Shown in pieces: positions 24,997 through 59,223 of a stretch of DNA of 64,000 nucleotides. Position numbers and translations under genes: made by a program. Origin of the DNA: Patescibacteria group bacterium (lineage in GTDB: Bacteria > Patescibacteriota > Patescibacteriia > JBAZBY01); NCBI GenBank assembly GCA_041671225.1, contig JBAZBY010000001.1, positions 558,940 to 622,939 on the forward strand. Reading direction: 5' to 3'. The notes under the pieces are model-generated. The model was given only the letters and a program-made list of their open reading frames with translations, had not been told where the DNA came from and did not search any database. The first letter of the stretch is position 1, and every line of letters starts with the position of its first letter.

Positions 24997-25012
24997 GCAA
25001 TTCTCCTGTTAT

Positions 25013-28260: not shown

Positions 28261-28292
28261 ATGTTATCAAGATCCGTCGCGGAAAACTCCTC

Positions 28293-28382
28293 TGGCGGAG
28301 GGTGTAGGATTCGAACCTACGAGAGGCTTGCGCCCCTAACGGTTTTCAAGACCGCCGCCTTCGACCACTCAGCCAACCCTCC
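28293..28382 (-). tRNA. tRNA-Ser (anticodon TGA), CCA encoded
   Basis: RC 'GGAGGGT-TG-GCTGAGTGGTCGAAGGC-GGCGGT-CTTGAAA-ACCGT-TAGGGGCGCAAGCCTCTCG-TAGGTTCGAATCCTAC-ACCCTCC-G-CCA'. Confidence 0.8.
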
Positions 28383-28478
28383 ATCAGAGGAGTTGCACAA
28401 CCGCTACCTTCAGCCACCCCTCCACTCTGGTGCGGTGACAAGACCATCGCCTTTCCCGCCTTTGGCATCGGAGCGTAT

Positions 28479-41328: not shown

Positions 41329-44300
41329 ATGCCGCAAATACTGCAGCACAAGAGCTTTCCGTATGTGATGACGCTCCTGGTTCTTCTATCAGGAGTCTTG
41401 CTTGGCGTCCTTTATGGTTCTCCCGTTTGGGCGGCGTGGATACAAACGCCGGTTCTTGAGGGCTATGAGAATGCTGTTATTCATGACATTGTCATGCTGG
41501 AGAAGAGCCCGGATAACACGCCAGAGAACACACCATATGTAGGTTATGCGGTAGGGCAGCTTGATGGCACACAGACCGCGGGAGCCATCATTCTTTACTA
41601 TAATGGCGTTTCTTGGTCGCATCTTTATTCTGACGAGCATCTTGGTATTTTGCGAGGTGTTGATGCGCGCTATGACGGAACAAAACCAGAAGTCATTGCC
41701 GTTGGAGATTATACCGTGAGCAGCGGCTACCCCACACCTGATTTCAATACCATTATACACGGCGTAAACAACATCTTCAGTATCCAGACGTATCAGGAAA
41801 TTGGTGGGGTTGCCGGCGCACATGATCGTTGTAATCCCATTATCGAGTTAAATTGTAAAAGTTGGGTAGCAGACGGGACAGATCTCGTTGATGCTGCCTT
41901 TGGTGATCAGGCGATCATTCACCGCTATGAAGGCGGCGCGTGTGCAGGCACTCTTCAGGATGATGGGTTGTTTATTATTGGCGACACACAAGATTATGGC
42001 GGTATAACCGGCATACGGGGTACGTTTCTTGTTGGGCAGCGTTGTGTTGACAGTTCATCGCACGATGTCATGTGGGTCATGCGTGATCAATTGTCCAATC
42101 CATACTATCCAACACTTTTTTCTTCACTTGCAACGCCAATTGTGGGGAATTTCACGGCAATGACCTACGCTGGACATAGCTCGTACTTTATTGCCGCGGA
42201 TAGAGCCACAGAATCAAAGGCAAGCCTATTTAAATTCAGCATGGACGCGGGCACGACAGGATTCAAAGAAGTGAGCACGTCTGGCGTTCAATTCAATGAT
42301 GCGGGCGGAGTGCGCACCATAGAAAGCTTGTCAGCAGTGCTTGAGCCAGGCCCGGCCGCGGACGCAAAAGGACCATATTGGCATGTCTATGCAACAACAG
42401 CAACGGATGGCAATGCGGATACAGGAGTGGTCCATCTTGGTATTTATGGTGATGCCGCGAGTGGTCTTTCGGACGGCCTTGCGCATACGCGCTTTTCAAC
42501 AAGCAAACCCATAAGTGATGTGGGTGCGGTTATTCAATATCGTGGCGGCAATATTCTTGCCAATAGTAACTTCACGGGAACTCATGAGAATAATGCGCAC
42601 CTGCCAGAAGGGTGGCATTCTTCAGATTCTATCGCCACTTTGTACGATACCACTATTCATGCCACTGATGTCGTTGATAATCCCTCAGCTCCAGAGGGGC
42701 CTTCTGGCAAGGTACTGCAGCTCGCGCAGGAACTCATAGAAAATGCCAATGAGTCAGCCGCGGTGCAGTTTTGGACAGACAATACCTTTACGACGCGCGT
42801 GACCACAACACAGAATGAACTCGCACATCCTTTTATTGGATCTCTCGACGCAGACGCGTTACTCGGAACCGTGCCTGGGAGCAATGCGTTTCGTATCACC
42901 GGTTTTTTTAAAGGCCATCCTTCTGACACATATGACTTTCAGCTTTCACTTACTCATCCAGGGGATACCCATGCACGGCTGTTTATTGGAAATAAAATAG
43001 CAGACTCAAATGGCGATTTTGATGATGCAAATGCCATAGCTGATAAGTGGACAGCAACAGCGCCTGGCTTTGGCCAGTTTACGTTTGATGGAGCAGGGGG
43101 AGAGATTCTTGATTCCATGACCCTTGGTGATGGCGCAGGCGTTCGTGAATCGGAGGGGTATTATCCTTTTGTGTTCGAGTTTGCCCGGGATAATGAACTT
43201 ATTGTTGGGCGCAGCGTCACTCTGCAATGGAAAAAAGATGGATCTGCAACGTATGATCCATTTAATCCAGCAATGCGGGTCGGTAATAGTAGCTTGATCG
43301 ATGGCGGGTTGGGTCAGCAAGCGGCTTCTGAACAGCCTTTACCGCACATGCGGGGGCCAAAGGGTCCGGCATATCTCGTGAAAGGCAAGGTGCGTGTTGC
43401 AAAGGCACCGGATGCTTTTTTTAACGCGAACGATCGTGACCCACGGAAGCCAGGAAGAGCCTGGGGCGGTATTTATACGCGTTGTGAGGATCCTGCATGG
43501 GGGGATTGCGGTTTTAACTGGTCAATAGAAACCATCGATCCAAAGGTTGAGTCTGACACGCTCACAACAGAAGACCCAGGAACAGGCGGTTGGCGTGAAT
43601 TTCAATATATCCTGGCAAAGACCGGCGAGGCACAAAATTACATGACGGTTGTTTGTTACGCCGAATACGGAGTGAAGACATGGTGTGCTGATTTTTCCAT
43701 AGAGCCGGTTCAAGAAGCCACACAAGCAACGGCGCCGCGTTATATGCTTTTTGCGTCTAGTCCCGATGGGAGTATTTTTTCTGGGAATGCAGAATTGCCG
43801 GGCACGATGACCCTCAAGGAAGAGGTGAGTGGTACCGTCGCGCTGCGCGCTATTGATGTTGCTTCTCCGGTGAAGGGAGCCGCAGGCGGTGATCATGGCG
43901 GGCTTTTTGATATTATTCCGGGGTTGGTGCAGGGATGGGGATGGGTTGGTGCAACAACCACCGGCACGTCAAAGGATGCATTGGGTTGGATCAGTTTTTC
44001 TTGCGCGGATTCCAATCAGTGCAATGAACATCAGCTGAGCTATGGTGTGAACCTCGGGAGCGCATTGCCTGGTAATCTGCATCCCTTGGATGGTGCGGCG
44101 TGGTTTGGCACCACAGACGTGAATCAGGTGCGCCAGCTTGATGGCGCACCGATAGCAAAGGATTCTGTTTGTACTGGCGACGATCGGTATATTTGCTCTC
44201 ATTATGTTCCTGATCCGGGGGACCCTGGCGCTCCTGCAGATGCGAATGCATTTTGTCAGTCTCTTGGCGCGGGAACGTGCCCTGCAGCGTCACAGGTATG

Positions 44301-46106: not shown

Positions 46107-47321
46107 ATGAGTCTGTTTGGGGGTAAAAAGAGCTATGTCGGCGTTGATATCGGTACTTCGTCCATAAAGGTAACGGAATTCACTGATGATCGCGGACGTC
46201 CACGGCTCGTAACATATGGATTTGCCGACCAGCCAATTGAGGTTTTAAAGTCTGATACGCCGGAATCACGTGAATATGTCACGCAGTCACTGAAGGCGAT
46301 ACTCAAGAAGGCGCACATTTCCTCAACCCAAGCAGTTGCTGCGCTGCCGAATTTTTCCGTGTTTTCATCCATCATTTCCTTACCGGAAATGAGCAAGAAA
46401 GATCTTTTTTCTGCTGTACGCTGGGAAGCAAAGAAATTCGTTCCAATGCCGCTCGAGGAGATGGTTCTGGACTGGCGGGTATTGAAGACGGAAGAGCAGC
46501 ATGCTGCGGCTGCCAAGGCAGCGCTGGAGCCGGCAATGGCAGGTATGCCAGATACAATACCAAGACCCGGCATTCCATCCGCAGCTGGAGCACCAGAATC
46601 CCTCTTTAAGGCGTCCAGTCAGAGCGAGGGTGAAATCAAAGAAGAGCACAAAGAGTTGGGTAAAGAGGGTCAGACAGGCAAAAATCTTCGCGTACTTATT
46701 ACCGCCGCACCCAAAGGGCTCGTTGAAAGGTATATTCAGATTTTCAAAGGCGCCGACCTGCAAATGAAAAGCCTTGAGACGGAAGCATTTTCACTCACAC
46801 GTTCATTGATTGGCAGCGACCCTTCACCCATTTTATTGGTTGATATTGGTGCAGTGACAACAACGATCAGTATTATCGTTGATGGCATTCCCATGATGAA
46901 CAAGAGTATTGATGTCGGTGGCGAAACAATCACACAAGCCATCACTACAAGTCTTCATGTTGAGCATCGTCGAGCGGAGCAGTTTAAGCGGGATTTTGGC
47001 CTTGCCACCTCCAGCGGGCCAGCAACACAGGTTCCCAAAACGATCGAATTCACTTTTTCTTCCATTGTGAATGAAATGCATTACGTGTTGAATCTTTTTC
47101 AAAGCCAGGAACACATTGTGCCGGAAAAAATCATTCTTGCCGGCGGTTCTGCTTTTCTTCCCAATCTTATTCATCACCTTGAGACAGAAATGAACATGCG
47201 CGCATTTATTGGGGATCCTTGGGCCCGCGTGGTGTATCCAAAAGATCTTCAGCCTTTGCTCGCAGAAATCGGTCCACGCTTTGCCGTGGCAGCAGGATTA
47301 GGAATGCGAGAGATACTCTAA
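46107..47321 (+). CDS. pilM: Type IV pilus assembly protein PilM (actin-like ATPase fold)
   Basis: 'KSYVGVDIGTSSIKVTEF' N terminus, 'ILAGGSAFLPNL', about 400 aa; first gene after P6. Confidence 0.85.
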   Translation: MSLFGGKKSYVGVDIGTSSIKVTEFTDDRGRPRLVTYGFADQPIEVLKSDTPESREYVTQSLKAILKKAHISSTQAVAALPNFSVFSSIISLPEMSKKDLFSAVRWEAKKFVPMPLEEMVLDWRVLKTEEQHAAAAKAALEPAMAGMPDTIPRPGIPSAAGAPESLFKASSQSEGEIKEEHKELGKEGQTGKNLRVLITAAPKGLVERYIQIFKGADLQMKSLETEAFSLTRSLIGSDPSPILLVDIGAVTTTISIIVDGIPMMNKSIDVGGETITQAITTSLHVEHRRAEQFKRDFGLATSSGPATQVPKTIEFTFSSIVNEMHYVLNLFQSQEHIVPEKIILAGGSAFLPNLIHHLETEMNMRAFIGDPWARVVYPKDLQPLLAEIGPRFAVAAGLGMREIL

Positions 47322-47328: not shown

Positions 47329-48402
47329 ATGCCAGATATCAATCTCACGCCTGAAGGGAGCAGTAGCGAGAAGCGCAAGAACGCAAAGCGCAAGAATTTT
47401 GAATACACTGATCCTGAGAAGGAAAAACAGCGCAAGGATGAACGCAAAGCGCCGGGAGGCCTTCGCGTCTGGATGAAGTCATTGCTACGACGCACTCCTC
47501 CTGGTAAACGCAGTGACGATGCAATGCCGGAGTCATTGACACCGCCTGAATTCAACACAACCAAACACGACGAAAACGTTGAGGACATTTTTGGCACTGT
47601 GGACGTGCCTGCAAAAGAGCGCGCAAAAGCCAAGGAGCAGAAGCAGGAAGTGCCGAATACGCCAAAGGCGCCAAAGCTCAAAAAACTTCCAGAAAAGAAG
47701 GAAGAAAAGAAAAAGGAGGAGAGAAGGATCGATGGCATGAACCTTTTGCCGGAAGAGTTTTCAACGAAGATTGATTTTCGCGGTCGTGGTATTTTGCTCA
47801 GCCTTGTTCTGGGTGCAACAGTCGTCTTTATTGCTCTGGCGTATGGGGGTCTTATTATTTATGAGAATGTGATTGCAAATCGCACCCGCGAAGCAACAGA
47901 TACTCGCATTGCCATTCAGCGCGATATTGAAGCGCTTGAATCCGAGCAGCTTGCAAGTATTGCTTTTCGGGAGAAGCTCGATCTCGCTGAAGCACTGCTG
48001 AATCAGCACGTGTATTGGACGAAGTTTTTTGCGTTATTAGAAAAGTACACCATTGATGATGTGTATTTCAGCGGATCCCTCCTCCTTTCAGAACCAGGAA
48101 CCTTCACGCTGTCCGGAATAGGTCGTGACTATACATCTGTTGTTCGCCAGCTTCTCGCCTTCCGACAGGCGATTCAGAGTCAGGAGTTTATTAGCTCTGT
48201 CAAAATTAACGGTGCTCAGCAAACTCAAGACAGCAGTGGAGCTATCGCGACAACATTCACCGCGGAGCTTACATTGTTACCCAATGTCAATACATATACT
48301 GCCGAGGAATATCTGACAAAGCCATCCGTCATCTCCATACCGCAATCATCCAATACAAATAGCAATACTGTTGATTCTGATAATCGACCTGCAACGCTAT
48401 GA
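47329..48402 (+). CDS. pilN: PilN-like pilus assembly protein with about 135-aa Lys/Glu-rich N-terminal extension
   Basis: Internal canonical 'MNLLPEEF' (47737) followed by TM 'ILLSLVLGATVVFIALAYG' and coiled region; INLLP-like 'DINLTPE' also at the extreme N terminus. Confidence 0.7.
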   Translation: MPDINLTPEGSSSEKRKNAKRKNFEYTDPEKEKQRKDERKAPGGLRVWMKSLLRRTPPGKRSDDAMPESLTPPEFNTTKHDENVEDIFGTVDVPAKERAKAKEQKQEVPNTPKAPKLKKLPEKKEEKKKEERRIDGMNLLPEEFSTKIDFRGRGILLSLVLGATVVFIALAYGGLIIYENVIANRTREATDTRIAIQRDIEALESEQLASIAFREKLDLAEALLNQHVYWTKFFALLEKYTIDDVYFSGSLLLSEPGTFTLSGIGRDYTSVVRQLLAFRQAIQSQEFISSVKINGAQQTQDSSGAIATTFTAELTLLPNVNTYTAEEYLTKPSVISIPQSSNTNSNTVDSDNRPATL

Positions 48403-49100
48403 AGCTTTCCCTTCGTCTTAATGCAGTGACTTCATTTTTGAACAAGCAATTTCGCTGGGCTATGCTTGGGATTGTTGCGGTCCTGCTCATTTTTGGCTTT
48501 ATGGTGCTTATCATTCCAAAGTGGCAGGAGCTGAGTAAACTCGGTCTTATTACATTAGAGCGCGAACGAGAACAAACAGTGCAAGCGGAAGAGTATCTTG
48601 GAAACTTACGTCGCTCTCTTGATGAATTTCGGCTGATCAGTGATACAAAGATTGCGCAGCTGGAGCAAGTGCTTCCTACTGAATTTGATGTTGCGCCGCT
48701 GTTTCTTGAAATGGAATCGCTTTTTAATGCCGCTGGATACGCGTTGAACAGTATCGATATTCTTGATCAAGGCGCGCAGAAGGCTTCGACTGCCGCTGTA
48801 CAGCAGTCGAACACAGGACAAAGCGCTGTTGTACGAGAACTCATCACAAGGGCACAGAAGAATGCCGAGGTGGTATCTCGCAATGAGAAGCTTCGCGTTA
48901 TTCAAATATCACTTTCATTGACTGGCGCGCAGGATTACAAGGGTATCAAGAAATTACTCACAACAATTGAGCAGCATCAACGTCTTATGGATATTCGTTC
49001 GGTGGGGATATCCGTTGGCGGGAAGGATATCACTGAGGAAACCGCAACTGCGGAGGGACAAATTTCCTTCACAGTCAATATTTATTACTTCGCAGAATAG
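48399..49100 (+). CDS. pilO: PilO-like pilus assembly protein
   Basis: Start overlaps pilN stop; TM 'WAMLGIVAVLLIFGFMVLII', coiled coil and C-terminal domain. Confidence 0.65.
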   Translation: MKLSLRLNAVTSFLNKQFRWAMLGIVAVLLIFGFMVLIIPKWQELSKLGLITLEREREQTVQAEEYLGNLRRSLDEFRLISDTKIAQLEQVLPTEFDVAPLFLEMESLFNAAGYALNSIDILDQGAQKASTAAVQQSNTGQSAVVRELITRAQKNAEVVSRNEKLRVIQISLSLTGAQDYKGIKKLLTTIEQHQRLMDIRSVGISVGGKDITEETATAEGQISFTVNIYYFAE

Positions 49101-49106
49101 CGACTT

Positions 49107-49397
49107 ATGGCACTTGCGCAACGTAGCAATACACGACGAACGATCATCCTGGCCGCCGCCCTGGGCGTGGTGCTGATCGCCGGGGGAGTGTATCTGTACA
49201 TCCAAAATAAACCGGATGAAACCATCATTGATCCATCAGCGATACTTGTGAACGCGAGCCAGAACCTTCCCATTATCTCAACCTTCTCGGATACGATCTT
49301 TGATGATCCGCGCTTTCAGGATCTGGTTTTTCGCGCGCCGCAGGAGATCACCATTGGCAATCTTGGTAAGGATAATCCTTTTCAGCCTACGTTTTAA
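49107..49397 (+). CDS. Small membrane-anchored pilus assembly protein (PilP-like position)
   Basis: 96 aa, TM 'IILAAALGVVLIAGGVYLYI', located between pilO and pilB. Confidence 0.4.
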   Translation: MALAQRSNTRRTIILAAALGVVLIAGGVYLYIQNKPDETIIDPSAILVNASQNLPIISTFSDTIFDDPRFQDLVFRAPQEITIGNLGKDNPFQPTF

Positions 49398-49400: not shown

Positions 49401-51161
49401 ATGCCAGCGCCTCAAGCTATCACAAGCGTTTCAACGAGCATCGGTGATATTTTAATCAGTCAGGGATTAATCACCAAAGAGCAGCTCGCAGAAGCAGAGC
49501 AAAAAGCACAGCAGGACGGCAGTTCTGTTGAGCAACATTTAGCTGAGCTCCCTGGTATGCGCGAGGATGAAGTTGTAAGGGCAAAGGGGCAGCTGTACAA
49601 CGTACCCTATGCTGATCTTTTTGGGCGTATTGTTCGCGCAGAAATACTCAATTTGATTCCGCAGAACATCGCCAATACGTACCACATGGTGACTTTTGCC
49701 CGTGAAGCGAATGAAGTGTCACTCGCCATGCTCAATCCTTCTGATTTTAAGGCTCTTGAGGCGATCGAATTTATCGCACGGAAGAATCGGTTGACCGTGA
49801 AGTACCACATCACGACAAAGGCGTCGTTGGGGTATATTCTTCGTCAGTATGAGTCGCTTTCTGCTGAGGTAGAAGAAGCATTGAAGGGCGCAGAGGAGGA
49901 AGCAACAGAACGTCAGGAGGCGCTCGTTGCGTCCGATGACAAGAGTTTTGAAGAAGTGGTGCGTCAGGCGCCGGTATCAAAGATGGTTTCTGTTATCATG
50001 CGGCACGCGGTGGAAGGCGGCGCATCAGACGTTCATATTGAGCCGCTCGAAGAAGAAACGCGGGTACGTTTTCGCGTTGATGGCATGTTGCATACTTCCA
50101 TTGTTCTCCCGCCGAATGTGCACAACTCACTCGTTGCTCGCATCAAGGTGCTTTCCAGGCTCAAGATCGATGAAACGCGCGTTCCGCAGGATGGACGTTT
50201 TCGCATGAATATTGATGGTAAGGATATCGACTATCGCGTGTCCACCTTACCGCTCATGAACAATGAAAAAGTCGTGATGCGTATTTTGGACACGTCAAAC
50301 CGCATGACAATGCTTTCTGATCTCGGTTTTGAAGGGAAGAATCTTGAGAAGATGGAGGCCAACTCACTGAAGTCACACGGCATGTTCCTGATCACCGGCC
50401 CGACTGGTTCCGGTAAGTCCACAACGCTGTATGCGCTCATGTCGCGGTTGAATAAAGACGAAGTAAACATCATTACGCTGGAAGATCCGGTGGAATATTA
50501 CATGCATGGCATTAACCAGTCACAGGTGAATCCGGAAGTCGGTCTTACCTTTGCTGCGGGTTTGCGCTCCATTTTGCGTCAGGACCCGGACATCATCATG
50601 GTTGGGGAAATCCGCGATAATGAAACCGCTGAACTGGCAGTTCATGCTGCGCTCACCGGTCACATCATGCTTTCTACTCTGCACACCAATGATGCTTTTG
50701 GAGCCGTGCCACGTCTCATTGATATGGATATTGAACCATTCCTTATCACCTCCTCACTCAATCTTGTGATGGCCCAGCGACTCGTGCGGCGTGTCTGCCA
50801 GCATTGCACGGAGGAGCGCACTATTGCGGAAGGGCTTGAGAAGGCAGTGCGAGATGAGCTGAAGAATGTTGACCCGAAGGAAATTCCCAGATCACTTGCC
50901 GGTGAACTCAAGTTCATGTATGGACGTGGTTGTCCGCGCTGCGAGAACACGGGCTACAAAGGACGCGTCGCAATTGCTGAAGTACTCGAAATGAGTGACG
51001 AGTTGAAGCGTATTATCGTTGACGCAAAGCAGGATCTCATTGGTTTGATTCAAGCAGAATTCAAGCGCCAAAAAATGCTTACCATTAAGCAAGATGGCAT
51101 GGTGAAGGTACTGCACGGCTCAACAACCATTGAAGAGGTGCTGAACGCAACACGATCTTAA
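49401..51161 (+). CDS. pilB: Type IV pilus assembly ATPase PilB (GspE family)
   Basis: N-terminal GSPII 'ILISQGLITKEQLAEAEQ'; Walker A 'GPTGSGKSTTLYA'; Walker B-type 'IIMVGEIRDNETAE'; His box 'GHIMLSTLHTNDA'; tetra-Cys 'CQHC...CPRC'. Confidence 0.9.
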   Translation: MPAPQAITSVSTSIGDILISQGLITKEQLAEAEQKAQQDGSSVEQHLAELPGMREDEVVRAKGQLYNVPYADLFGRIVRAEILNLIPQNIANTYHMVTFAREANEVSLAMLNPSDFKALEAIEFIARKNRLTVKYHITTKASLGYILRQYESLSAEVEEALKGAEEEATERQEALVASDDKSFEEVVRQAPVSKMVSVIMRHAVEGGASDVHIEPLEEETRVRFRVDGMLHTSIVLPPNVHNSLVARIKVLSRLKIDETRVPQDGRFRMNIDGKDIDYRVSTLPLMNNEKVVMRILDTSNRMTMLSDLGFEGKNLEKMEANSLKSHGMFLITGPTGSGKSTTLYALMSRLNKDEVNIITLEDPVEYYMHGINQSQVNPEVGLTFAAGLRSILRQDPDIIMVGEIRDNETAELAVHAALTGHIMLSTLHTNDAFGAVPRLIDMDIEPFLITSSLNLVMAQRLVRRVCQHCTEERTIAEGLEKAVRDELKNVDPKEIPRSLAGELKFMYGRGCPRCENTGYKGRVAIAEVLEMSDELKRIIVDAKQDLIGLIQAEFKRQKMLTIKQDGMVKVLHGSTTIEEVLNATRS

Positions 51162-51172: not shown

Positions 51173-51586
51173 ATGTCAAAAAATACATCCAACAAAGGAC
51201 AAAGAAAAGCAAGTCGTATTTTACTTGTGGAGGATGATTCGTTCCTTGCTGGCATGTATGTGACAAAGCTCACACTGGAAGGTCTTTCCGTTGAGCTTGC
51301 GACAGATGGCGCAAAGGGACTCAAGATGGCGCAGGAGATGAAACCGGACATCATTCTTTTGGACATCATTCTTCCAAAAATGAGCGGTTTTGATGTTCTC
51401 AAAAAGCTGCGAGAAAACAAGGAAACAAAGGACGTGCCTATTCTGCTTTTGACGAATCTTGGGCAGAAAGAGGACGTTGAGAAGGGTCTGAAGCTTGGCG
51501 CAACAGATTATCTTATCAAGGCGCATTTTCTCCCTGATGAGGTGGTCACAAAAATTATCGCTACACTCAAAGGCAAGAAATCATGA
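51173..51586 (+). CDS. Single-domain response regulator (PilH/CheY-like) embedded in the pilus operon
   Basis: 'ILLVEDDSF', 'DIILLDIILPKMSG', 'DYLIKA'. Confidence 0.8.
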   Translation: MSKNTSNKGQRKASRILLVEDDSFLAGMYVTKLTLEGLSVELATDGAKGLKMAQEMKPDIILLDIILPKMSGFDVLKKLRENKETKDVPILLLTNLGQKEDVEKGLKLGATDYLIKAHFLPDEVVTKIIATLKGKKS

Positions 51587-52653
51587 GCACCGATTCAGGC
51601 ATCACCATTGAACGTATTGTTGGCGCTGCCGCAGAATACGGCGCGTCGGATGTCCACTTGACCGTTGGCAACCCGCCGATTCTCCGCGTGGATGGAAAAC
51701 TTGTTTCACTGGATCAGGAAGAAATTGTTACGCCAGATTTTACCGAAGAGGTAAAGAAGGCCGTTCTCACAGAGGAGCAGCAGCAGCGCCTCATGGAGCA
51801 GCGCGACATCACCATTGCATATACCATGCCAAACAATACGCGCTTCAAGGTAGATGCGTATTTTCAACGCGGCGCGCTTTCCATCAGTTTTCGTTCTATT
51901 GGCAAGAAGATTCGGACTATTGATGAACTCGGCCTTCCATCACAGCTCAAGGCATTCGCAAAACTGGAGAAGGGATTGGTTCTTATCACGGGCCCGTTTG
52001 GGTCCGGGCGAACAGCAACAATGGCGGCATTGGTTCAGGAGATCAACAAAACGCGCGCAGAACACATTGTCACCATTGAGAAGCCGATCGAGTATTTATA
52101 CATGAATACAAAGAGCATCATTGAGCAGCGTGAGATCGGCGTGGACGCTGTTTCTGTTGAGCAGGCAATCCACACGGCCGCACGCGAGGATGTGGATGTG
52201 ATCGTTGTTTCAGAGATGGAAACGCGTGAAGAAATTGATGCAGCGCTCACGGCGGCAGAATCAAGCCATCTCGTGCTTTCAACAATGAATACCGATTCTG
52301 TATTGCGCACGATTGAAAAAATTATCAATGCCTTTCCGCAGGACGAGCATGAAAAGGTGCGTACAGAACTCGCCGGAACCCTGCAGGGGATCCTCAGCCA
52401 ACGATTACTCTCAAAAGTGGGTGGCGGTCGCGTTGCCGCGGTGGAGGTTATGATTCCAACAGATTCACTCCGTGCGGTTATTCGCGATGGCGCTTTGGTG
52501 CAGCTCCCCAATCTCTTGCAAACATCGCGTGAAGCAGGGAGCATTCCCATGGATGTTGCGCTTGGTGAGCTCGTACGCGCGGGCACTGTTTTGCAGGAGG
52601 ATGCCATGATGCACACAAGTAACAAGAGCAGTTTGCGCGCAATGCAGCTCTAA
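51583..52653 (+). CDS. pilT: PilT-like retraction ATPase homolog with a non-canonical Walker A and His box
   Basis: 'GLVLITGPFGSGRTATMAAL' (Arg in the Walker A Lys position), 'DVDVIVVSEMETRE', 'AAESSHLVLSTMNTDS' (Asn where the second His-box His is expected). Confidence 0.8.
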   Translation: MSTDSGITIERIVGAAAEYGASDVHLTVGNPPILRVDGKLVSLDQEEIVTPDFTEEVKKAVLTEEQQQRLMEQRDITIAYTMPNNTRFKVDAYFQRGALSISFRSIGKKIRTIDELGLPSQLKAFAKLEKGLVLITGPFGSGRTATMAALVQEINKTRAEHIVTIEKPIEYLYMNTKSIIEQREIGVDAVSVEQAIHTAAREDVDVIVVSEMETREEIDAALTAAESSHLVLSTMNTDSVLRTIEKIINAFPQDEHEKVRTELAGTLQGILSQRLLSKVGGGRVAAVEVMIPTDSLRAVIRDGALVQLPNLLQTSREAGSIPMDVALGELVRAGTVLQEDAMMHTSNKSSLRAMQL

Positions 52654-52667: not shown

Positions 52668-53876
52668 ATGGCCGTTTTTGATTACAAGGCAAAAGACCTT
52701 TCCGGTGCATCAATCACCGGCGTGGTTGAAGCGCCTTCTGAGGCAGTGGCGCAGGACGTGCTCAAGGAGCGTGACCTTGTGGTGCTTTCGCTTTCTGAGC
52801 GCAGAAAGATGCGCTTGTTTCAGTCATCGCTCGGTTTTCTGAATAAGGTGCCTCGTCGCGACATTGCGCTCTTTGCGCGGCAGCTGGCTGTGATGATTTC
52901 TGCAACGGTGCCGATTGTGCAAGCATTGCGCATTTTGACAAAGCAGACAGAGAATGTGAACTTCAAGATTATCATTTCAGAGATCGCTGATGAAGTGGAT
53001 GGCGGCGCAAAGCTTTCTGCGACACTCGCGCGATACCCAAACCTGTTTACGGACTTTTTTATCCACATGGTTCGTGCCGGCGAGACAACCGGCAAGCTCG
53101 ATGAAACGCTGAACTATCTCGCGGATCAGGAAGAAAAAGACTACGACCTGAACTCAAAGATCAAGGGCGCAATGACATACCCGATCTTTATTCTGATCAC
53201 GTTGGTTATCGTGGGCATCTTGATGATGATTTTTGTGATTCCTCGGCTCTCCAGCATTCTGGAAGAAAGCGGACAAGAACTCCCGCCGCTTACCAAGCTT
53301 TTGATCGGTACAAGCACTTTTTTGCAGAATTTCTGGTGGGTGCTGGTTATTCTGGCGGTTGGCGGCTGGCTTGGGTATCGCTTTGCCATGCAGCGCCCAG
53401 AGGGGAAGCGCGTGTTGGATCGCGTGAAGATGCATGCCCCTGTTTTTGGAGCCATTTTTCAGCATATGTATCTCGTGCGGTTCGCGCGGTCGCTCTCTAC
53501 TCTTGTATCGTCTGGCATTCCTATTACGCAGTCACTTTCTATTGTTGCGGACGTTGTGGGGAATAGCGTGTATCGCGATCTCACAATGGAAACGATCAAG
53601 GAGATCGAGGGAGGAAACTCCATTTCAACTGTTTTTTCGCGAAGTAAGGACATTCCTATCATGCTTTCTCAGATGCTTGCCGTTGGTGAGCAAACCGGGA
53701 AGCTGGACATGATCTTGGACAGACTTGCCGCGTTCTACGCGCGTGAACTGGAGAATCTTGTTGCGAATCTTGTGAGTCTCATTGAGCCGCTCATTCTTCT
53801 TGTGATGGGAGCGGCGGTTTCTATTCTCGTTGTTGCGATCATGATGCCGCTGTATAGCCTTTCATCTGCAATTTAG
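52668..53876 (+). CDS. pilC: Type IV pilus platform protein PilC (GspF family)
   Basis: Two GspF repeats, 3 TM, 402 aa. Confidence 0.9.
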   Translation: MAVFDYKAKDLSGASITGVVEAPSEAVAQDVLKERDLVVLSLSERRKMRLFQSSLGFLNKVPRRDIALFARQLAVMISATVPIVQALRILTKQTENVNFKIIISEIADEVDGGAKLSATLARYPNLFTDFFIHMVRAGETTGKLDETLNYLADQEEKDYDLNSKIKGAMTYPIFILITLVIVGILMMIFVIPRLSSILEESGQELPPLTKLLIGTSTFLQNFWWVLVILAVGGWLGYRFAMQRPEGKRVLDRVKMHAPVFGAIFQHMYLVRFARSLSTLVSSGIPITQSLSIVADVVGNSVYRDLTMETIKEIEGGNSISTVFSRSKDIPIMLSQMLAVGEQTGKLDMILDRLAAFYARELENLVANLVSLIEPLILLVMGAAVSILVVAIMMPLYSLSSAI

Positions 53877-54050: not shown

Positions 54051-54665
54051 ATGACCAATCAAAAGAAAGGATTTACGCTCATTGAATTGCTCGTCGTAAT
54101 CGCAATCATCGGTATTCTTTCAGCAATCGGTCTCGTCTCGCTCAATGGAGCGCGAGAAAAGGCACGCGACGCACAGCGTAAGAGCGACCTTGGTCAGATG
54201 AATACGGCACTCGTGTTGTATTTTGATGACAACAACAGCACGTATCCGATTCAAGATAACTTGGATGGAGAAATGGACACCCATGCTGATTGTATTACCG
54301 GAGATTCAACCCCGGTTATCGTACGCCCAGAAGCAGATAATACGACTTACACCGTAGGCGGTGCTGTGAATGCCACAGCCACAGCGACGGTTGTGAGCAT
54401 CTGGGATACCGCAGCAAATGGTTCTCCGATGATAACGGATTATCTCAGCCGACAGTTGGTTCCGCCAGGCGGTGGTACAGGTTGGAACAACGTGTACTGT
54501 TATGACACTAATAGCAGCACCGGTTTAGTTGCTGGGAATTCGTATGTTCTCTACGCCGGCCTTGAAGCAGGAGCAGGAGACACATTCTTCTCACTCAATG
54601 CTAATGGGGACTCTGATACAACCATCCCCCCAGCATGCGCCGCGGGAGCCGATTGTGACGTTTAG
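54051..54665 (+). CDS. pilA: Type IV pilin (major-pilin candidate 1)
   Basis: Prepilin '[31 protein letters not shown]', Glu at +5; C-terminal Cys pair; strong RBS 'aagggggtgacgac ATG'. Confidence 0.85.
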
Positions 54666-54687
54666 CTGATCTGTAGTTTGATCTACA

Positions 54688-54722
54688 CCAAAGACCCACA
54701 CGCGTGTGGGTCTTTTGGTGTA
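54688..54722 (+). terminator. Rho-independent terminator hairpin after pilin 1
   Basis: 'caccaaagacccacacgcgtgtgggtcttttggtg' perfect 14-bp stem followed by T-rich tract. Confidence 0.6.
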
Positions 54723-54817
54723 GCATCTAGAATATATGGTTTTGTAGGAATCTCATGTGGTGTATACTATAGACATACTTAATTTCAAATATTTCTTGAA
54801 CGAAAGGGGGTGACGAC

Positions 54818-55402
54818 ATGACCAATCAAAAGAAAGGATTTACGCTCATTGAATTGCTCGTCGTAATCGCAATCATCGGTATTCTTTCAGCAATCGGTCT
54901 CGTCTCGCTCAATGGAGCGCGAGAAAAGGCACGCGACGCACAGCGTAAGAGCGACCTTGGTCAGATGAATACGGCGTTGGTCCTCTACTACGATGATCAT
55001 TCTAGCCAGTATCCTGCGCAGACAGCGACTGATGCTGTTACTGATGCAGACTGCATTGATTCTACTGGCGCGGTGACGTATCCGCAGGCAAAGGATGCAG
55101 TATCACCACTTGTGAACCAGACTGGCGGCGCACTGAATCTGTGGCTTAGTACTGGCGGAATAGTTCCAACATATTTGAGTCGTGAACTAGTCCCACCAAC
55201 AGGCGAAGACTGGAGCGACATCTACTGCTATGACACGAATGAGGCACATGCCACCAGCCCGTACAGTTCATATGTCATTTATGCTGGACTTGAAGCAGGC
55301 ACCGGACTCAACGCCTTTACGCTGAATAGCGCTGGTGATAGTGACGAAGATGCCACGTTGCCAGTTGCGTGCACAGCTCAGGACACGTGCCTTATTGATT
55401 AA
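54818..55402 (+). CDS. pilA: Type IV pilin (major-pilin candidate 2), tandem paralog with 5' half identical to pilin 1
   Basis: First 57 residues plus RBS identical to 54051 gene; C-terminal domain diverged but conserves 'YCYDTN' and 'YAGLEAG' blocks and the terminal Cys pair. Confidence 0.85.
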   Translation: MTNQKKGFTLIELLVVIAIIGILSAIGLVSLNGAREKARDAQRKSDLGQMNTALVLYYDDHSSQYPAQTATDAVTDADCIDSTGAVTYPQAKDAVSPLVNQTGGALNLWLSTGGIVPTYLSRELVPPTGEDWSDIYCYDTNEAHATSPYSSYVIYAGLEAGTGLNAFTLNSAGDSDEDATLPVACTAQDTCLID

Positions 55403-55491: not shown

Positions 55492-56085
55492 ATGTCCATA
55501 CTAGGATTCCTTGCAGTTATCACGCCGATTTTCTTTTCGCTGTATTGGCTTTTGCTTTTTTTCCGCATGGTACGTGTCGGAAGCAAAACACAGAGCGTGT
55601 ATCTTTTGAGCGGAGTTGTACTGTATGGACTTTCCATCATTGTGGTGTTTGCGGCACGGGCAGGTATTATTCAGGAAAACGCCTCTCGCGGCCAGCTGGG
55701 GACATATTTGCTCGAGACGTCATTTTATTCAGACAGCCTTGTGCGCCTTGTGCCGCAGTATCTTGCCGCAGTCATAGGTGCGGCGGTTCTTTGGTTGTTC
55801 CTTTTGGGGCTGCGCAAAATCTCCCGTCGCAACTTTTATGACTCACAAGAGGCCGGCATGATTGCCGTGGGCGCGCTGATGGCAGGTTGGCCGGGGGTCT
55901 TTGTGTTCCTTGCGCTCCTCTTTTTTCTTGTGTTGCTTGCGGGGGTTATGCATGTGCTGTTGAAGCAAAGCCAAACAAGCGACCGGTTTGTTATTGGACC
56001 CATGATACCCGTTGCTGCCATTGCGGTCATCTGGCTGGGCACGCTTTTGCTTCATGTTACAGGCCTTGATGTCATTCGTTTTTAA
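55492..56085 (+). CDS. Hypothetical polytopic membrane protein in the pilin cluster
   Basis: About 6 hydrophobic helices; no recognised motif. Confidence 0.45.
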   Translation: MSILGFLAVITPIFFSLYWLLLFFRMVRVGSKTQSVYLLSGVVLYGLSIIVVFAARAGIIQENASRGQLGTYLLETSFYSDSLVRLVPQYLAAVIGAAVLWLFLLGLRKISRRNFYDSQEAGMIAVGALMAGWPGVFVFLALLFFLVLLAGVMHVLLKQSQTSDRFVIGPMIPVAAIAVIWLGTLLLHVTGLDVIRF

Positions 56086-56095
56086 AACACATTTT

Positions 56096-56524
56096 ATGAA
56101 CCACACACACTATTCATCCGAGCGCGGCTTTACACTGACAGAGCTCATCATCAGCGTGGGTGTTTTGCTGGTGCTGGTTCTTTATGGTGCGCTCCTCTTC
56201 CGCGGCGAGCAGGCAAAGGCACGCGATGCCGAACGCATTGCAGACATGCGCACGGCACAGGCAGCGTTTGCCGTGCTTTACAACGAGACGAATAGTTATC
56301 AAGATGCGGCAGTCGGTTGCAACACCATTGCGGACCCGCTTTCTTCCTGTGCTCTGGCATCGTATCTCCCCGGACTCACCGCGCTGGAAGATCCAGGGCG
56401 CTTTACGTACCGTGTTATTGAGCTCCCGGATTCCACGGGGTACCGCATTGAATTTGTCCTGGAGCGCGGCTATGACGGCCTCCCAGCGGGTATTCATTAT
56501 CTCACGCCAATCGGATTGCAATAA
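56096..56524 (+). CDS. Type IV pilin-like protein (minor pilin)
   Basis: 'MNHTHYSSERG|FTLTELIISVGVLLVLVLYGALL'. Confidence 0.7.
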   Translation: MNHTHYSSERGFTLTELIISVGVLLVLVLYGALLFRGEQAKARDAERIADMRTAQAAFAVLYNETNSYQDAAVGCNTIADPLSSCALASYLPGLTALEDPGRFTYRVIELPDSTGYRIEFVLERGYDGLPAGIHYLTPIGLQ

Positions 56525-56527
56525 CCT

Positions 56528-57271
56528 GTGTTTATCGCACTCATTTTTCTTTTTGGCCTCTTTTTCGGCAGCTTTCTCAACGTTGTCATTAATCGCCTGC
56601 ACACAGGCGAGCAGTTTTTGAAGGGACGTTCCCATTGCCCGCATTGCCGGCATGACCTCTCTTCCGCGGATCTCATACCCGTCATAAGCTATCTCACCTT
56701 GCGTGGCCAGTGTCGGTATTGTCATAAGCACATCTCGCCGCAGTATCCGCTCGTGGAGTTTGCAACGGGGATTGCGCTTGCCATTGCTGCCGCAGCGCTT
56801 GGATGGGGAGTTCCTTTTCTTTTTGCAGCACTTGCCACACTTTTCCTCGTTGTCCTTTTTGTTTTTGATCTGAAGCATCATTTGATCCTTGATGTGGTGA
56901 GCTATCCCTTTGCGGTACTTGCGCTCATTGCGGGTTTTCTTTTTGGCCACACGTATCTGGACATTCTGATCGGCGGCGTGATCGGCGGAGGATTCTTTCT
57001 TGCGCAGATTCTTTTTTCGCGCGGGCGTTGGGTCGGCGGCGGCGATGCAAAGCTCGGCATTGGCATGGGTTTTTTGCTTGGTTGGGATGGCGTGCTCCTT
57101 GCGCTTTTTTTGGCTTATATCTCCGGCGCGATCATCGGAAGCATTCTTCTTCTTTCCCGCAAAGCTACGCCACGTTCTGCAATTCCCTTTGGTACGTTTT
57201 TGACACTTGCAACATATATTGCGATGCTCTGGGCAGATCCCATTCTTCTTTTTTATGACCACCTTGTTTAG
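56528..57271 (+). CDS. pilD: Prepilin peptidase (A24 family), GTG start
   Basis: N-terminal TM, tetra-Cys 'CPHCRH...CRYC', catalytic-Asp context 'VGGGDAKLG'. Confidence 0.85.
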   Translation: MFIALIFLFGLFFGSFLNVVINRLHTGEQFLKGRSHCPHCRHDLSSADLIPVISYLTLRGQCRYCHKHISPQYPLVEFATGIALAIAAAALGWGVPFLFAALATLFLVVLFVFDLKHHLILDVVSYPFAVLALIAGFLFGHTYLDILIGGVIGGGFFLAQILFSRGRWVGGGDAKLGIGMGFLLGWDGVLLALFLAYISGAIIGSILLLSRKATPRSAIPFGTFLTLATYIAMLWADPILLFYDHLV

Positions 57272-57333
57272 GCAATCCTGCATCATTTTGACAGAATACT
57301 ACGCAGAGTAAATCAACGAACACTTCCCTTGCA

Positions 57334-57975
57334 ATGAGCCAACAACCCACAACCCACAACCCACAAACAGGCTTTACGCTCATTGAGCTCACTATTTCCA
57401 TCGCCATTTTTGGTATTCTTGCGGTAACCGTACTCACAGGGTTTCGCAATGCGGATAGAATTGAGGCATTTCGTCATGATGCAAGTCTTCTTGCGTCAGA
57501 TCTGCGTGCAGTACAGAATCGCGCCCTTGCTGGCGCTTTGGACAACAGCGGTGAATTCCCACGAGGCGGGTATGGTCTTCGTATTGAAGAATGTAACACC
57601 CCTCCCTGTACGTATCTTTTTTGGCGAGAAAAAGATGATCCCCCAGATCAACGCATACTTGATCTAACCGGGACAGAGGTGCAAGGCACGACAATGATGT
57701 CCAAGTATACAAAGGTTCTTTCGGTGGTCGTGCAGGATCCGGGTGGCTTGAATCAATCGCAAGCAACGCAAGCGCAAATGTCTTTTAAGCCACCGCGCCC
57801 TACGCCATTTGTGTGGTGGGCTGCTCCTCCAGGAGAGCCGCAACCGATTCCCGCAACAAACGGGATCGAAGGTAAACAGGTGATGATCACCCTTTCTTTT
57901 ACTGATGACCCTACTATTCAGCGCGTGATAGAGGTAAAGGGTATTTCAGGACAAATAAGCGTCTATGCTCCATAA
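57334..57975 (+). CDS. Minor pilin / pseudopilin
   Basis: '...TG|FTLIELTISIAIFGILAV'. Confidence 0.7.
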   Translation: MSQQPTTHNPQTGFTLIELTISIAIFGILAVTVLTGFRNADRIEAFRHDASLLASDLRAVQNRALAGALDNSGEFPRGGYGLRIEECNTPPCTYLFWREKDDPPDQRILDLTGTEVQGTTMMSKYTKVLSVVVQDPGGLNQSQATQAQMSFKPPRPTPFVWWAAPPGEPQPIPATNGIEGKQVMITLSFTDDPTIQRVIEVKGISGQISVYAP

Positions 57976-58561
57976 GCAGCAAAAAGGACAAACCATGATT
58001 GAGGCCGTCGTTGCCGTAGGCATATTACTTGCGGGAGTGACCGCGTTGATCACGCTTTCTATTGCCACGCTCAAGGCAGATCAAATAAGCAGCAGAAAAA
58101 TTGTTGCTATTAATCTTGCCCGTGAAGCGCTTGAAGTTGCACGCAATGTGCGTGATTCGAATTGGCTTGCAGGGAGGCATGATGATTGTTCTGGGACGCT
58201 GGCAGATGATACGGATAATTGGTTTTATGGTTTAGAGGGCCAGCCCTTCGGTTCTTGCGGTGTCGTACCCACTGAGTATTTTCCGCAACTGGAGACGGTT
58301 TCTGGCGTTTTAACCTTTGAGCGTGTTGCAGACCCGCTTGATAAGGATGTGTATTTGACGAGTGCAGGGTTATACAATCAGGATCTCTTGACACCCGTTG
58401 GTACAAAAACCATATACCGACGCTGGGTCACCGTCGCGCCGCAAACCATAAGTTCGCCGAAGATTAATTACGTCGATCTTACTGCTCATGTGGAGTACAC
58501 ATTAGATAATAGAATCCACTCGGTTGAGCTCGCGACCAGACTTTATAACTGGAAGCCATGA
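57965..58561 (+). CDS. Pilin-like protein with variant N-terminal motif (PilV/PilW-like)
   Basis: 'KGQTMIEAVVAVGILLAGVTALITL' with Glu at +5. Confidence 0.55.
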   Translation: MLHKQQKGQTMIEAVVAVGILLAGVTALITLSIATLKADQISSRKIVAINLAREALEVARNVRDSNWLAGRHDDCSGTLADDTDNWFYGLEGQPFGSCGVVPTEYFPQLETVSGVLTFERVADPLDKDVYLTSAGLYNQDLLTPVGTKTIYRRWVTVAPQTISSPKINYVDLTAHVEYTLDNRIHSVELATRLYNWKP

Positions 58562-59223
58562 TACGCATACCAAAAAAAGGCGAGAAAGGTTTTACGTTAC
58601 TTGAGCTTCTTATTGTAACGGCTATTTTTGCCCTGACGGTCGTGTTGGCAGTGGATATTTTTATTGTGCTTACCAAGCTTCAACGGAAAACGTTCACCTC
58701 GCAGCGGTTGCAGGGTGATGCGCGGTTTGTGATGGAATTGATCGCCAAGGATGTGCGTTTGGGGCAGATTGATTATGAATTTTATGACCAACTCAGCAGC
58801 CTTTATGGGATCACCATTGACCTCACAACGTCAACAAATCTCCTTGCACTACGCGACGCGCAAGGAGAATCTATCGTGTATCGACGGGCTGACCTGCAAG
58901 GGGATACTCTCTGGGATGAGCCATTAGGCAATGAGTGGAATGATCCGTCTGGCCCCGCCCTTGAAGTGTGTATTGGAGATTGCATTAGCAATACAAATTC
59001 CGTTTGGGAATCAATTACTCCAGAGGGTATTAAAGTTGTGAGTACGCATTTTTTCATAACCCCATCAGTGACGCCATTTGTGCCTGTTGCCGGCGTCTTT
59101 GCGAATGATGAGCAGCCGAAGGTTCTTATTCAGATTGGCACGCAGGGAGAGGGCTTCACCACCGAAGAACAAGGATTCATTTTCTTACAAACAACAGCCT
59201 CAACGCGTATTTATGAAAGGTAA
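58558..59223 (+). CDS. Minor pilin
   Basis: 'KGEKG|FTLLELLIVTAIFALTVVLAV'. Confidence 0.7.
   Translation: MIRIPKKGEKGFTLLELLIVTAIFALTVVLAVDIFIVLTKLQRKTFTSQRLQGDARFVMELIAKDVRLGQIDYEFYDQLSSLYGITIDLTTSTNLLALRDAQGESIVYRRADLQGDTLWDEPLGNEWNDPSGPALEVCIGDCISNTNSVWESITPEGIKVVSTHFFITPSVTPFVPVAGVFANDEQPKVLIQIGTQGEGFTTEEQGFIFLQTTASTRIYER

What the first reader, a model, noticed from the sequence alone, without database searches (positions are those of the whole stretch)
51583..52653. The only PilT homolog in the locus has substitutions at invariant ATPase positions
Compared with typical PilT ('GPTGSGKSTT', 'GHLVFxTLHT'), this protein reads 'GPFGSGRTAT' (Arg replaces the P-loop Lys) and 'SHLVLSTMNT' (Asn replaces the second His-box His). 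The Walker B Glu ('VSEME') is retained. PilB in the same operon has fully canonical motifs. This predicts an impaired or repurposed retraction ATPase, that is, pili that extend but retract poorly or need another motor, with implications for twitching, DNA uptake and attachment.
Basis: partly seen in the sequence, partly recalled or inferred. Interest (0 to 1): 0.65.

Follow-up and report, generated by a model that had tools for sequence, protein, structure and literature searches.

The report
Remodelled PilT pilus ATPase in Patescibacteria
The pilus-retraction gene in this ultrasmall (Patescibacteria/CPR) bacterium really lacks several residues that every ordinary PilT motor needs, and the same altered version is conserved under selection across a large group of related bacteria, so it is an evolved variant with a changed (probably weakened or switch-like) ATPase, not a broken gene.

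Summary
ORF 51583-52653 (+) is a full-length PilT-family protein. HMMER alignment to solved PilTs places Arg at the Walker A Lys and Asn at the gamma-phosphate His. There are further changes: P-loop Thr to Phe, Asp-box Asp to Lys, GEMRD to SEMET, and first arginine finger Arg to Lys.

It is not a one-off lesion. At least 110 homologues from Patescibacteria carry the same pattern. They form one clade (200/200 NJ bootstraps) and sit in the pilB-(receiver)-pilT-pilC slot that canonical PilT occupies in other Patescibacteria.

The gene is under purifying selection like PilB and PilC (pN 0.09 against saturated pS 0.70). It nevertheless evolves faster relative to PilB than canonical PilT does.

The Mg-binding Glu, catalytic Glu and P-loop Thr are kept. 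Substitutions are chemically conservative, and one is a compensated charge swap.

Best reading: a nucleotide-binding PilT with slowed or uncoupled hydrolysis, acting as a low-power retraction factor or switch.

Whether a canonical pilT exists elsewhere in the roughly 1-Mb genome could not be tested. I found no published description. I rate it a new variant of a known kind, moderately high interest.

The parts
51583..52653 (+). PilT* : PilT-family two-domain ATPase with remodelled catalytic site (356 aa)
   Evidence: AF2 pLDDT 88.6; Foldseek TM 0.90 to G. metallireducens PilT4-ATP 6ojx
51838..51900 (+). arginine-finger region TRFKVDAYFQRGALSISFRSI: first finger is K89 (canonical R, 119/121), second finger R104 is kept
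   Evidence: finger assignment by the 15-residue spacing of PilB R271/R286 (PMC5424180)
51991..52020 (+). Walker A GPFGSGRTAT: T139F, K143R (codon CGA), T144 kept
52072..52095 (+). Asp box TIEKPIEY: Mg-coordinating E166 and E170 kept, D167K
   Evidence: role of the Asp-box Glu from PMC5424180
52198..52224 (+). Walker B region VIVVSEMET: G210S, catalytic E211 kept, R213E (charge-swap partner of D167K), D214T
52255..52293 (+). His box AESSHLVLSTMNT: T227S, G228S, H229 kept here (Arg in most relatives), H236N
   Evidence: role of the His from PMC6858323
52465..52488 (+). SLRAVIRD, counterpart of the PilT signature AIRNLIRE (aligned to AIRNLIRE of Aquifex PilT)
   Evidence: R297, I300 and R301 near-invariant in the clade
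51173..51586 (+). stand-alone CheY-like receiver (137 aa) with the DD / D / T / K phospho-acceptor set; its stop overlaps the PilT* start (ATGA)
   Evidence: conserved between pilB and pilT in many Patescibacteria
49401..51161 (+). PilB extension ATPase, fully canonical motifs, MshEN N-terminal domain
52668..53876 (+). PilC platform protein (T2SSF x2)
46107..47321 (+). PilM (actin-like)
47329..49397 (+). three ORFs in the PilN/PilO positions (357, 233 and 96 aa), no Pfam hit; assigned by conserved synteny only
54051..55402 (+). two tandem pilins (204 and 194 aa) with identical first 56 residues
56528..57271 (+). PilD prepilin peptidase (A24_N_bact + Peptidase_A24)
57334..59223 (+). three minor pilin-like genes with N_methyl motifs

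Best explanation
This is the positional orthologue of the PilT retraction ATPase in a large Patescibacteria lineage; I call it PilT*. It has kept the PilT fold, the P-loop glycine frame, the P-loop Thr, the Mg-coordinating Asp-box Glu and the catalytic Walker B Glu. It has replaced the residues that make canonical PilT a fast, cooperative motor: the Walker A Lys (Arg), the gamma-phosphate His (Asn), the inter-subunit relay Thr residues (Phe, Ser), the first arginine finger (Lys) and an Asp-Arg pair (swapped to Lys-Glu). The most likely mechanism, which is inferred, is that PilT* still forms a hexamer and still binds Mg-ATP, but hydrolyses slowly or without the normal subunit-to-subunit coupling. 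It would then work as a low-power retraction factor or nucleotide-gated switch. In that role it docks on the PilM/PilC platform in place of PilB, so that the thin pilus can depolymerise, possibly under control of the translationally coupled CheY-like receiver. It would not be a 100-pN motor. Shown here: identity, substitutions, conservation, selection, synteny and fold. Inferred: ATP binding without fast hydrolysis, the platform-competition role, and the link to the receiver.
For: (1) Column assignment and family membership are established. (2) Of the 120 closest homologues, 117 are non-canonical: R at the Lys position in 99 (K in 18), F/Y at the P-loop Thr in 116, R at His1 in 109, and no His at His2 in any. 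The Asp-box Glu (116/117), the second Glu (117/117), the catalytic Glu (110, plus 5 Asp) and the P-loop S/T (117/117) are kept. (3) Every replacement keeps the chemical class (K/R, R/K, H/R, H/N, T/S). D167 and R213 show a charge swap: D-R in 129 canonical-type sequences, and basic-acidic in 60 of the 71 PilT* with K/R at 167 (Fisher p = 3e-15, not phylogenetically corrected). (4) The Arg codon is CGA here, and CGN or AGR in relatives, so the Arg is old and maintained. (5) Selection is purifying: pN 0.087 against pS 0.70 versus the 87%-identical relative, the same as PilC and slightly tighter than PilB. (6) There is partial relaxation. In canonical Patescibacteria genomes PilT is more conserved than PilB in 91% of 78 genome pairs (ratio 1.14). 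In PilT* genomes it is less conserved than PilB in 99% of 153 pairs (ratio 0.81). (7) It occupies the same slot, pilB-(RR)-pilT-pilC, as canonical PilT in other Patescibacteria, and all non-canonical sequences form a single clade (200/200 NJ bootstraps). (8) Some sublineages in the same slot have also lost the catalytic Glu (L047, L049, L050, L060, L079), so the family's core role tolerates loss of hydrolysis. (9) Published work: H229A (the residue that is N236 here) abolishes twitching, and a proton relay E204-H230-T221-T133 has been proposed (PMC6858323). The Asp-box Glu binds Mg and the second His binds the gamma-phosphate (PMC5424180). (10) The fold is intact.
Against: There is no biochemical measurement, so the conserved catalytic Glu, Mg-Glu and P-loop Thr in this subclade fit a working, merely unusual, ATPase equally well. 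Walker A K-to-R effects are known to me from other P-loop proteins, not from PilT. The charge-swap contact is inferred from covariation; I could not measure distances in a structure. The rest of the genome (about 94%) was not visible, so a second canonical PilT or PilU cannot be excluded. The NJ clade could be inflated by long-branch attraction. The receiver is also found with canonical PilT, so it is not specific to PilT*.
Confidence: 0.5

Rival explanations
1. PilT* is a fully competent retraction motor that reaches normal ATP hydrolysis with a re-wired active site. Arg would do the job of Lys in the P-loop, Arg/His and Asn that of the His box, and Lys that of the first arginine finger.
For: The catalytic Glu, the Mg-binding Glu and the P-loop Thr are almost invariant in this subclade. 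The substitutions are chemically conservative and include a compensated charge swap. Purifying selection is strong. The fold is intact.
Against: The Lys, both His, the Asp-box Asp and both Arg fingers are 99-100% invariant in 121 canonical PilTs and in all four Geobacter paralogues (PMC5065972). H229A kills twitching (PMC6858323). PilT* evolves faster relative to PilB than canonical PilT does. K and R alternate within the clade, and some members lose the catalytic Glu, so Lys-specific chemistry is not required. From my own knowledge, Walker A K-to-R typically lowers hydrolysis by orders of magnitude while keeping binding (for example RecA K72R).
Confidence: 0.2
2. PilT* is a catalytically silent adaptor that recruits another ATPase to the pilus base. 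The partner would be either a PilU-like or canonical PilT encoded elsewhere in the genome, or PilB working in both directions as CpaF does in Tad pili.
For: In V. cholerae, ATPase-dead PilT (K136A, E204A) still supports retraction, provided PilU is active (PMC6821130). Single bifunctional motors exist (CpaF, abstracts of PMC11300603 and PMC12019362). PilT can also promote extension (PMC9815625). The relaxed rate and the loss of the catalytic Glu in some lineages fit a scaffold.
Against: There is no second PilT-family gene in the 64-kb window or within 10 kb of pilT* in any of about 20 related loci. No canonical PilT in the top 120 of a search seeded with a canonical Patescibacteria PilT shares a contig length with any PilT* genome, although that test is weak. 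The studied Saccharibacterium TM7x is described with one PilT, encoded in its first pilus locus (PMC11623550). The retained catalytic Glu and Mg site would be unnecessary for a pure scaffold.
Confidence: 0.17
3. The gene is a decaying relic of pilT with no remaining function.
For: Many canonical-invariant residues are lost, and the rate relative to PilB is faster.
Against: The reading frame is intact at full length. pN/pS is at most about 0.1 and equals that of PilC and PilB. The new residues are themselves conserved over at least 110 homologues at 45-88% identity. Synteny is conserved and the start overlaps the upstream gene's stop, which suggests translational coupling. The fold is predicted with confidence.
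Confidence: 0.03

Closest known systems
Canonical PilT retraction ATPase (TIGR01420; A. aeolicus 2EWV, G. metallireducens PilT4 6OJX, P. aeruginosa 3JVV)
   Same: Length, two-domain fold (TM 0.90), 37-42% identity, score above the family cut-off, the gene slot between pilB and pilC, the P-loop glycines, the Asp-box Glu residues, the catalytic Glu, the second arginine finger, and an AIRNLIRE-like helix (SLRAVIRD).
   Different: Walker A Lys to Arg, P-loop Thr to Phe, first arginine finger Arg to Lys, Asp-box Asp to Lys, GEMRD to SEMET, His-box TGH...H to SSH...N, and R246K. That makes 13 canonical-invariant positions changed. It also evolves faster than PilB instead of slower.
PilU, the PilT-dependent accessory retraction ATPase
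   Same: Same family model (TIGR01420 covers PilT and PilU). P. aeruginosa PilU 9n32 is a good sequence and fold match.
   Different: In the studied systems PilU has a conserved Walker A Lys whose mutation (K134A) is used to ablate its ATPase, it depends on PilT, and it is often encoded alongside pilT (PMC6821130 and PMC6762196). Here there is no adjacent pilT and the gene occupies the primary pilT slot.
Engineered ATPase-dead PilT (V. cholerae PilT K136A / E204A)
   Same: A PilT without the Walker A Lys that can still take part in retraction (PMC6821130).
   Different: Those are laboratory alleles that need PilU. PilT* is a natural, conserved lineage with Arg (not Ala), many co-adapted changes and no visible PilU.
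[quoted passage not shown]
   Same: They show that pili can retract without a dedicated strong PilT motor (abstracts listed).
   Different: Those systems lack a PilT-like protein at the machine. Here a PilT-derived protein is retained and conserved.

Membership tests
PilT/PilU family type IVa pilus ATPase (TIGR01420) | Full-length match to the family model above its curated cut-off | tested here: met
   356.3 bits against cut-off 319.1, covering residues 9-348 of 356
PilT/PilU family type IVa pilus ATPase (TIGR01420) | Two-domain PilT fold (N-terminal PAS-like domain plus RecA-like C-terminal domain) | tested here: met
   AF2 pLDDT 88.6, pTM 0.82; Foldseek top hits are all PilT, TM 0.90 to 6ojx
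PilT/PilU family type IVa pilus ATPase (TIGR01420) | Walker A GxxGxGK[ST] with invariant Lys | tested here: not met
   GPFGSGRT: Arg143. Lys is present in 121/121 canonical domains.
PilT/PilU family type IVa pilus ATPase (TIGR01420) | Atypical Walker B (hhhhG) followed by the catalytic Glu | tested here: met
   VIVVSE: Glu211 is present. The Gly is Ser, and the following RD is ET.
PilT/PilU family type IVa pilus ATPase (TIGR01420) | Asp box E-D-P-x-E | tested here: inconclusive
   EKPIE: both Glu residues are kept (the Mg ligand according to PMC5424180) and Asp is replaced by Lys
PilT/PilU family type IVa pilus ATPase (TIGR01420) | His box with two invariant His (the second contacts the gamma-phosphate) | tested here: not met
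   SSHLVLSTMNT: the first His is kept in this protein (Arg in 109/117 relatives) and the second His is Asn
PilT/PilU family type IVa pilus ATPase (TIGR01420) | Two arginine fingers in the N-terminal domain | tested here: not met
   RFK...FRS: the first finger is Lys89 and the second, Arg104, is kept
PilT/PilU family type IVa pilus ATPase (TIGR01420) | Gene context with pilB and pilC of a type IVa pilus cluster | tested here: met
   pilM-N-O-pilB-RR-pilT*-pilC-pilins-pilD
PilT/PilU family type IVa pilus ATPase (TIGR01420) | ATP hydrolysis that powers pilus retraction | not testable with these tools
   Needs an ATPase assay and retraction imaging
PilU (accessory motor) | Co-occurs with, and depends on, a canonical PilT, and is often encoded alongside it | tested here: inconclusive
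   No other PilT in the window or within 10 kb in related loci. The rest of the genome was not visible.
Pseudo-ATPase / nucleotide-binding switch derived from a motor | Binds nucleotide but lacks meaningful turnover | not testable with these tools
   Only indirect evidence: binding residues kept, catalytic and coupling residues replaced

The most novel reading that the evidence does not exclude
A large part of the Patescibacteria (lineages labelled Kerfeldbacteria, Buchananbacteria, Nomurabacteria and other Parcubacteria-group MAGs) has converted its only PilT into a natural non-motor: an ATP-binding 'clutch' hexamer that gates spontaneous, hydrolysis-independent pilus retraction. In that case the pili of these energy-poor ultrasmall cells retract without a dedicated motor, although they keep a PilT-shaped protein.
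Probability: 0.3. Interest if true: 0.8.

Novelty: new variant of a known kind. Interest (0 to 1): 0.6.

Why it matters
Type IV pili are thought to be central to how Patescibacteria attach to hosts, move and take up DNA, and retraction is the force-generating step. The Walker A Lys and the His-box His are treated as defining, invariant features of PilT-like motors. A deep, selected lineage that does without them, in the primary pilT slot, is useful in two ways. It is a natural experiment on which residues the motor really needs, and it raises the question of whether retraction in these energy-limited cells is motor-driven at all. In practice, annotation pipelines label these proteins 'PilT', and sometimes 'TadA'. 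Comparative studies that count 'pilT present' therefore infer retractile pili and twitching for organisms in which that may not hold. I found no paper that describes this variant. The one study that looked at motifs in Patescibacteria reported conserved Walker boxes in the Saccharibacterium TM7x (PMC11623550), and loci labelled Saccharibacteria carry canonical PilT here.

Tried and rejected
(1) Misalignment is rejected. The HMMER alignment to three solved PilTs is gap-free through all motifs.

(2) Assembly error is rejected. The identical protein occurs on 4 contigs from different sources.

(3) Receiver specificity is rejected. I asked whether the CheY-like receiver between pilB and pilT* co-evolved specifically with the degenerate PilT. 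The same receiver precedes canonical PilT in L019, L022, L025, L030, L033, L040, L045, L055 and L062.

(4) A relocated catalytic Lys (WNK-like) at the Asp-box position is rejected. Many R-type relatives have Gln there. The covariation with position 213 points to a structural charge swap instead.

(5) The search for a second pilT was inconclusive.
- A protein search seeded with a canonical Patescibacteria PilT returned no hit whose longest contig matched any PilT* genome: 1,028,488; 857,372; 822,872; 609,483; 608,530; 330,388; 212,565 bp. Only the top 120 hits are listed, so this test is weak.

(6) dN/dS is only an upper bound. Synonymous sites are saturated even against the closest relative, so I report pN and pS instead.

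(7) The AF2 model returns no coordinates, so the D167-R213 contact and the geometry of Arg143 could not be measured.

(8) The 390-aa ORF on the minus strand (56114-57286) is treated as spurious, because pilD lies on the plus strand there.

Full report
**What is there.**

The ORF at 51583-52653 (+) encodes a 356-aa protein. It matches Pfam T2SSE and scores 356 bits on NCBIfam TIGR01420, the PilT/PilU family, above the 319-bit cut-off. Its best solved relatives are PilT of Aquifex aeolicus (E 3e-82), Geobacter, Thermus and Pseudomonas.

- GPFGSGRTAT lies on GPTGSGKSTT.
- IEKPIEY lies on IEDPIEY.
- VSEMET lies on VGEMRD.
- AESSHLVLSTMNT lies on AETGHLVFGTLHT.

So Arg143 replaces the Walker A Lys, Asn236 replaces the second His-box His, and the Walker B Glu211 is kept. 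Also changed are the P-loop Thr (Phe139), the Asp-box Asp (Lys167), the Gly before the catalytic Glu (Ser210), the Arg-Asp after it (Glu213, Thr214), the His-box Thr-Gly (Ser227, Ser228) and the first arginine finger (Lys89).

tblastn finds no second PilT in the 64-kb window. PilB at 49401-51161 is fully canonical.

The exact protein is on four independently assembled contigs, one longer than 1 Mb. NCBI labels it as a Patescibacteria-group MAG.

**It is a family, not a lesion.**

Of the 120 closest database proteins (45-88% identity), 117 share the non-canonical pattern:

| Position | State in the 117 non-canonical homologues |
|---|---|
| P-loop Thr | F/Y in 116 |
| Walker A Lys | Arg in 99, Lys in 18 |
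| First arginine finger | Lys in 113 |
| Asp-box Asp | K 55, Q 39, R 8 |
| Gly before catalytic Glu | Ser in 105 |
| First His | Arg in 109 |
| Second His | N 86, S 17, T 7; never His |

The residues that bind Mg-nucleotide are almost untouched: Asp-box Glu 116/117, second Glu 117/117, catalytic Glu 110 (plus 5 Asp), P-loop Ser/Thr 117/117.

In 121 canonical PilT domains from many phyla, all sixteen positions examined are 92-100% invariant, and 97-100% for all but the P-loop Thr. A column-by-column comparison finds 13 positions that are at least 90% conserved in canonical PilT and different in this clade.

The Arg codon is CGA in the window, and CGN or AGR in relatives, so the Arg is old and maintained. 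A search of 1.84 billion cluster representatives shows further, more divergent non-canonical PilT-like proteins: 42 of 160 scored domains among the best 150 proteins.

**Orthology and context.**

The window carries a complete type IVa pilus cluster:
- a 1567-aa protein;
- pilM;
- three ORFs in the pilN/pilO positions;
- pilB;
- a stand-alone receiver;
- pilT*;
- pilC;
- two pilins;
- pilD (56528-57271);
- minor pilins.

The same order recurs in a Kerfeldbacteria genome and in about 20 other Patescibacteria loci that carry PilT*.

Other Patescibacteria have a canonical PilT in exactly that slot, with or without the receiver. They are labelled Saccharibacteria, Moranbacteria, Doudnabacteria, Amesbacteria and Parcubacteria group. 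PilT* is therefore the positional orthologue of PilT, not a PilU-like extra.

In a neighbour-joining tree of 121 PilT domains, all non-canonical sequences form one clade separated from every canonical PilT (200/200 bootstraps). Long-branch attraction cannot be excluded with this method.

The receiver's stop codon overlaps the pilT* start (ATGA at 51583-51586), which suggests translational coupling. The receiver has the full phospho-acceptor residue set.

**Selection.**

Against the 87%-identical relative, pN is 0.087 while pS is 0.70 (saturated). That equals PilC (0.087 / 0.70) and is slightly tighter than PilB (0.116 / 0.69). The gene is clearly maintained.

Its constraint has nevertheless shifted. 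Among canonical Patescibacteria genomes, PilT is more conserved than PilB in 91% of 78 genome pairs (median identity ratio 1.14). Among PilT* genomes, PilT* is less conserved than PilB in 99% of 153 pairs (ratio 0.81). At equal PilB divergence (45-55% identity), canonical PilT averages 53.5% identity and PilT* 40.6%.

Several sublineages in the same slot have also lost the catalytic Glu (L047, L049, L050, L060, L079). Lys and Arg alternate at the Walker A position within the clade.

**Nature of the changes.**

Published structures assign clear roles to the replaced residues:
- In PilB the Asp-box Glu coordinates Mg, two arginine fingers sense the phosphates, the second His contacts the gamma-phosphate, and the P-loop Thr backbone touches the His-box Thr of the neighbouring packing unit (PMC5424180).
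- In PilT, H229A abolishes twitching, and a proton relay from the catalytic Glu through H230, T221 and T133 has been proposed (PMC6858323).

In PilT* all three relay residues are replaced (N236, S227, F139), while the Mg ligand and the catalytic base stay.

Every replacement keeps the chemical class. Positions 167 and 213 covary as a charge swap: D-R in 129 sequences, and basic-acidic in 60 of the 71 PilT* with K/R at 167 (Fisher p = 3e-15, uncorrected for phylogeny). This is the signature of a remodelled, still structured pocket rather than decay.

AlphaFold2 gives a confident model (pLDDT 88.6, pTM 0.82). Its best structural match is ATP-bound Geobacter PilT4 (TM 0.90).

**Interpretation.**

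I think the most likely reading (about 0.5) is a PilT that still assembles and binds Mg-ATP but has lost fast, cooperative hydrolysis. It would serve as a low-power retraction factor, or as a nucleotide-gated switch that competes with PilB for the PilM/PilC platform. The steps from 'binds ATP' onward are inference.

The main rivals are:
- a fully active motor with a re-wired site (0.2);
- a silent adaptor for another ATPase (0.17), as ATPase-dead PilT is for PilU in V. cholerae (PMC6821130);
- a dead relic (0.03), which the selection data contradict.

**Limits.**

The indirect contig-length test was negative but weak. Nothing here measures ATPase activity or retraction.

**Novelty.**

Six literature searches found no description of this variant. 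The one Patescibacteria study that inspected motifs reports conserved Walker A and B boxes in TM7x (PMC11623550), and loci labelled Saccharibacteria carry canonical PilT here. All four Geobacter PilT paralogues keep every motif (PMC5065972).

I rate this a new variant of a known kind, with interest 0.6.

Noticed in passing
window 20000-28400: Low-GC block (0.33-0.45, against about 0.50 elsewhere). It holds an MBOAT acyltransferase plus an AlgX-like SGNH protein, NUDIX, GNAT, GreA and a GluR0-like ligand-gated channel (SBP_bac_3 + Lig_chan). It ends at two tRNA-Ser genes (28011-28102, 28293-28382, minus strand). It could be an acquired island.
   Followed up: partly
window 54051-55402: Two tandem pilin genes whose first 56 residues are identical and whose C-terminal parts differ. 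This looks like a recent duplication with a diversifying exposed domain.
   Followed up: no
window 41329-46032: A 1567-aa protein with no Pfam hit lies directly upstream of pilM. A protein of similar size sits at the same place in related loci (1453 aa in L004, over 1500 aa in L008, and one with DUF2341/Laminin_G_3 in L009). It may be a pilus-associated surface protein.
   Followed up: no
L016 654-1727, L020 10001-11074, L023 10001-11074: A PilT*-like gene (GPFGSGKTTT ... ANSERLVITNIEA) is paired only with pilM and lies away from pilB and pilC. In L023 the order is Der - Pth - PilT* - PilM - Mfd - DprA - TopA, so it is next to a competence gene.
   Followed up: partly
L047, L049, L050, L060, L079 (pilT slot at about 10001-11074): PilT* in loci labelled Buchananbacteria or Nomurabacteria, and in related loci, has also lost the catalytic Glu (VLFLEQ, VLYLEK, VLFLEN, VVVVGM, VAFLDQ). 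In some of them an acidic residue appears one position earlier.
   Followed up: no
P0121-P0128; L057 8888-11056, L073 960-3128, L082 8825-11074: Tandem PilT-PilT fusion proteins (700-1000 aa) in loci labelled Myxococcaceae, Myxococcales and delta proteobacterium, and in unnamed database proteins. Where both halves are resolved, the N-terminal half usually has a modified His box (ALTGH or AMTGH) and P-loop (GATGSGK, GSTGSGK), and the C-terminal half is canonical in all except P0122 and P0127.
   Followed up: no
L010, L016, L018, L048, L049; P0089, P0101: Public labels look unreliable. Loci with typical Patescibacteria pilus synteny are titled 'uncultured Gammaproteobacteria', and NCBI names some PilT* proteins 'Flp pilus assembly complex ATPase component TadA'.
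   Followed up: no
window 56114-57286 (-): A 390-aa ORF on the minus strand overlaps pilD (56528-57271, +) and a small pilin-like ORF (56012-56524, +). It is most likely spurious.
   Followed up: yes
window 51173-51586 and the pilB-pilT gap in L019, L022, L025, L030, L033, L040, L045, L055, L062: A stand-alone CheY-like receiver is inserted between pilB and pilT in many Patescibacteria, with canonical PilT as well as with PilT*. No histidine kinase was identified among the window ORFs scanned with Pfam.
   Followed up: partly
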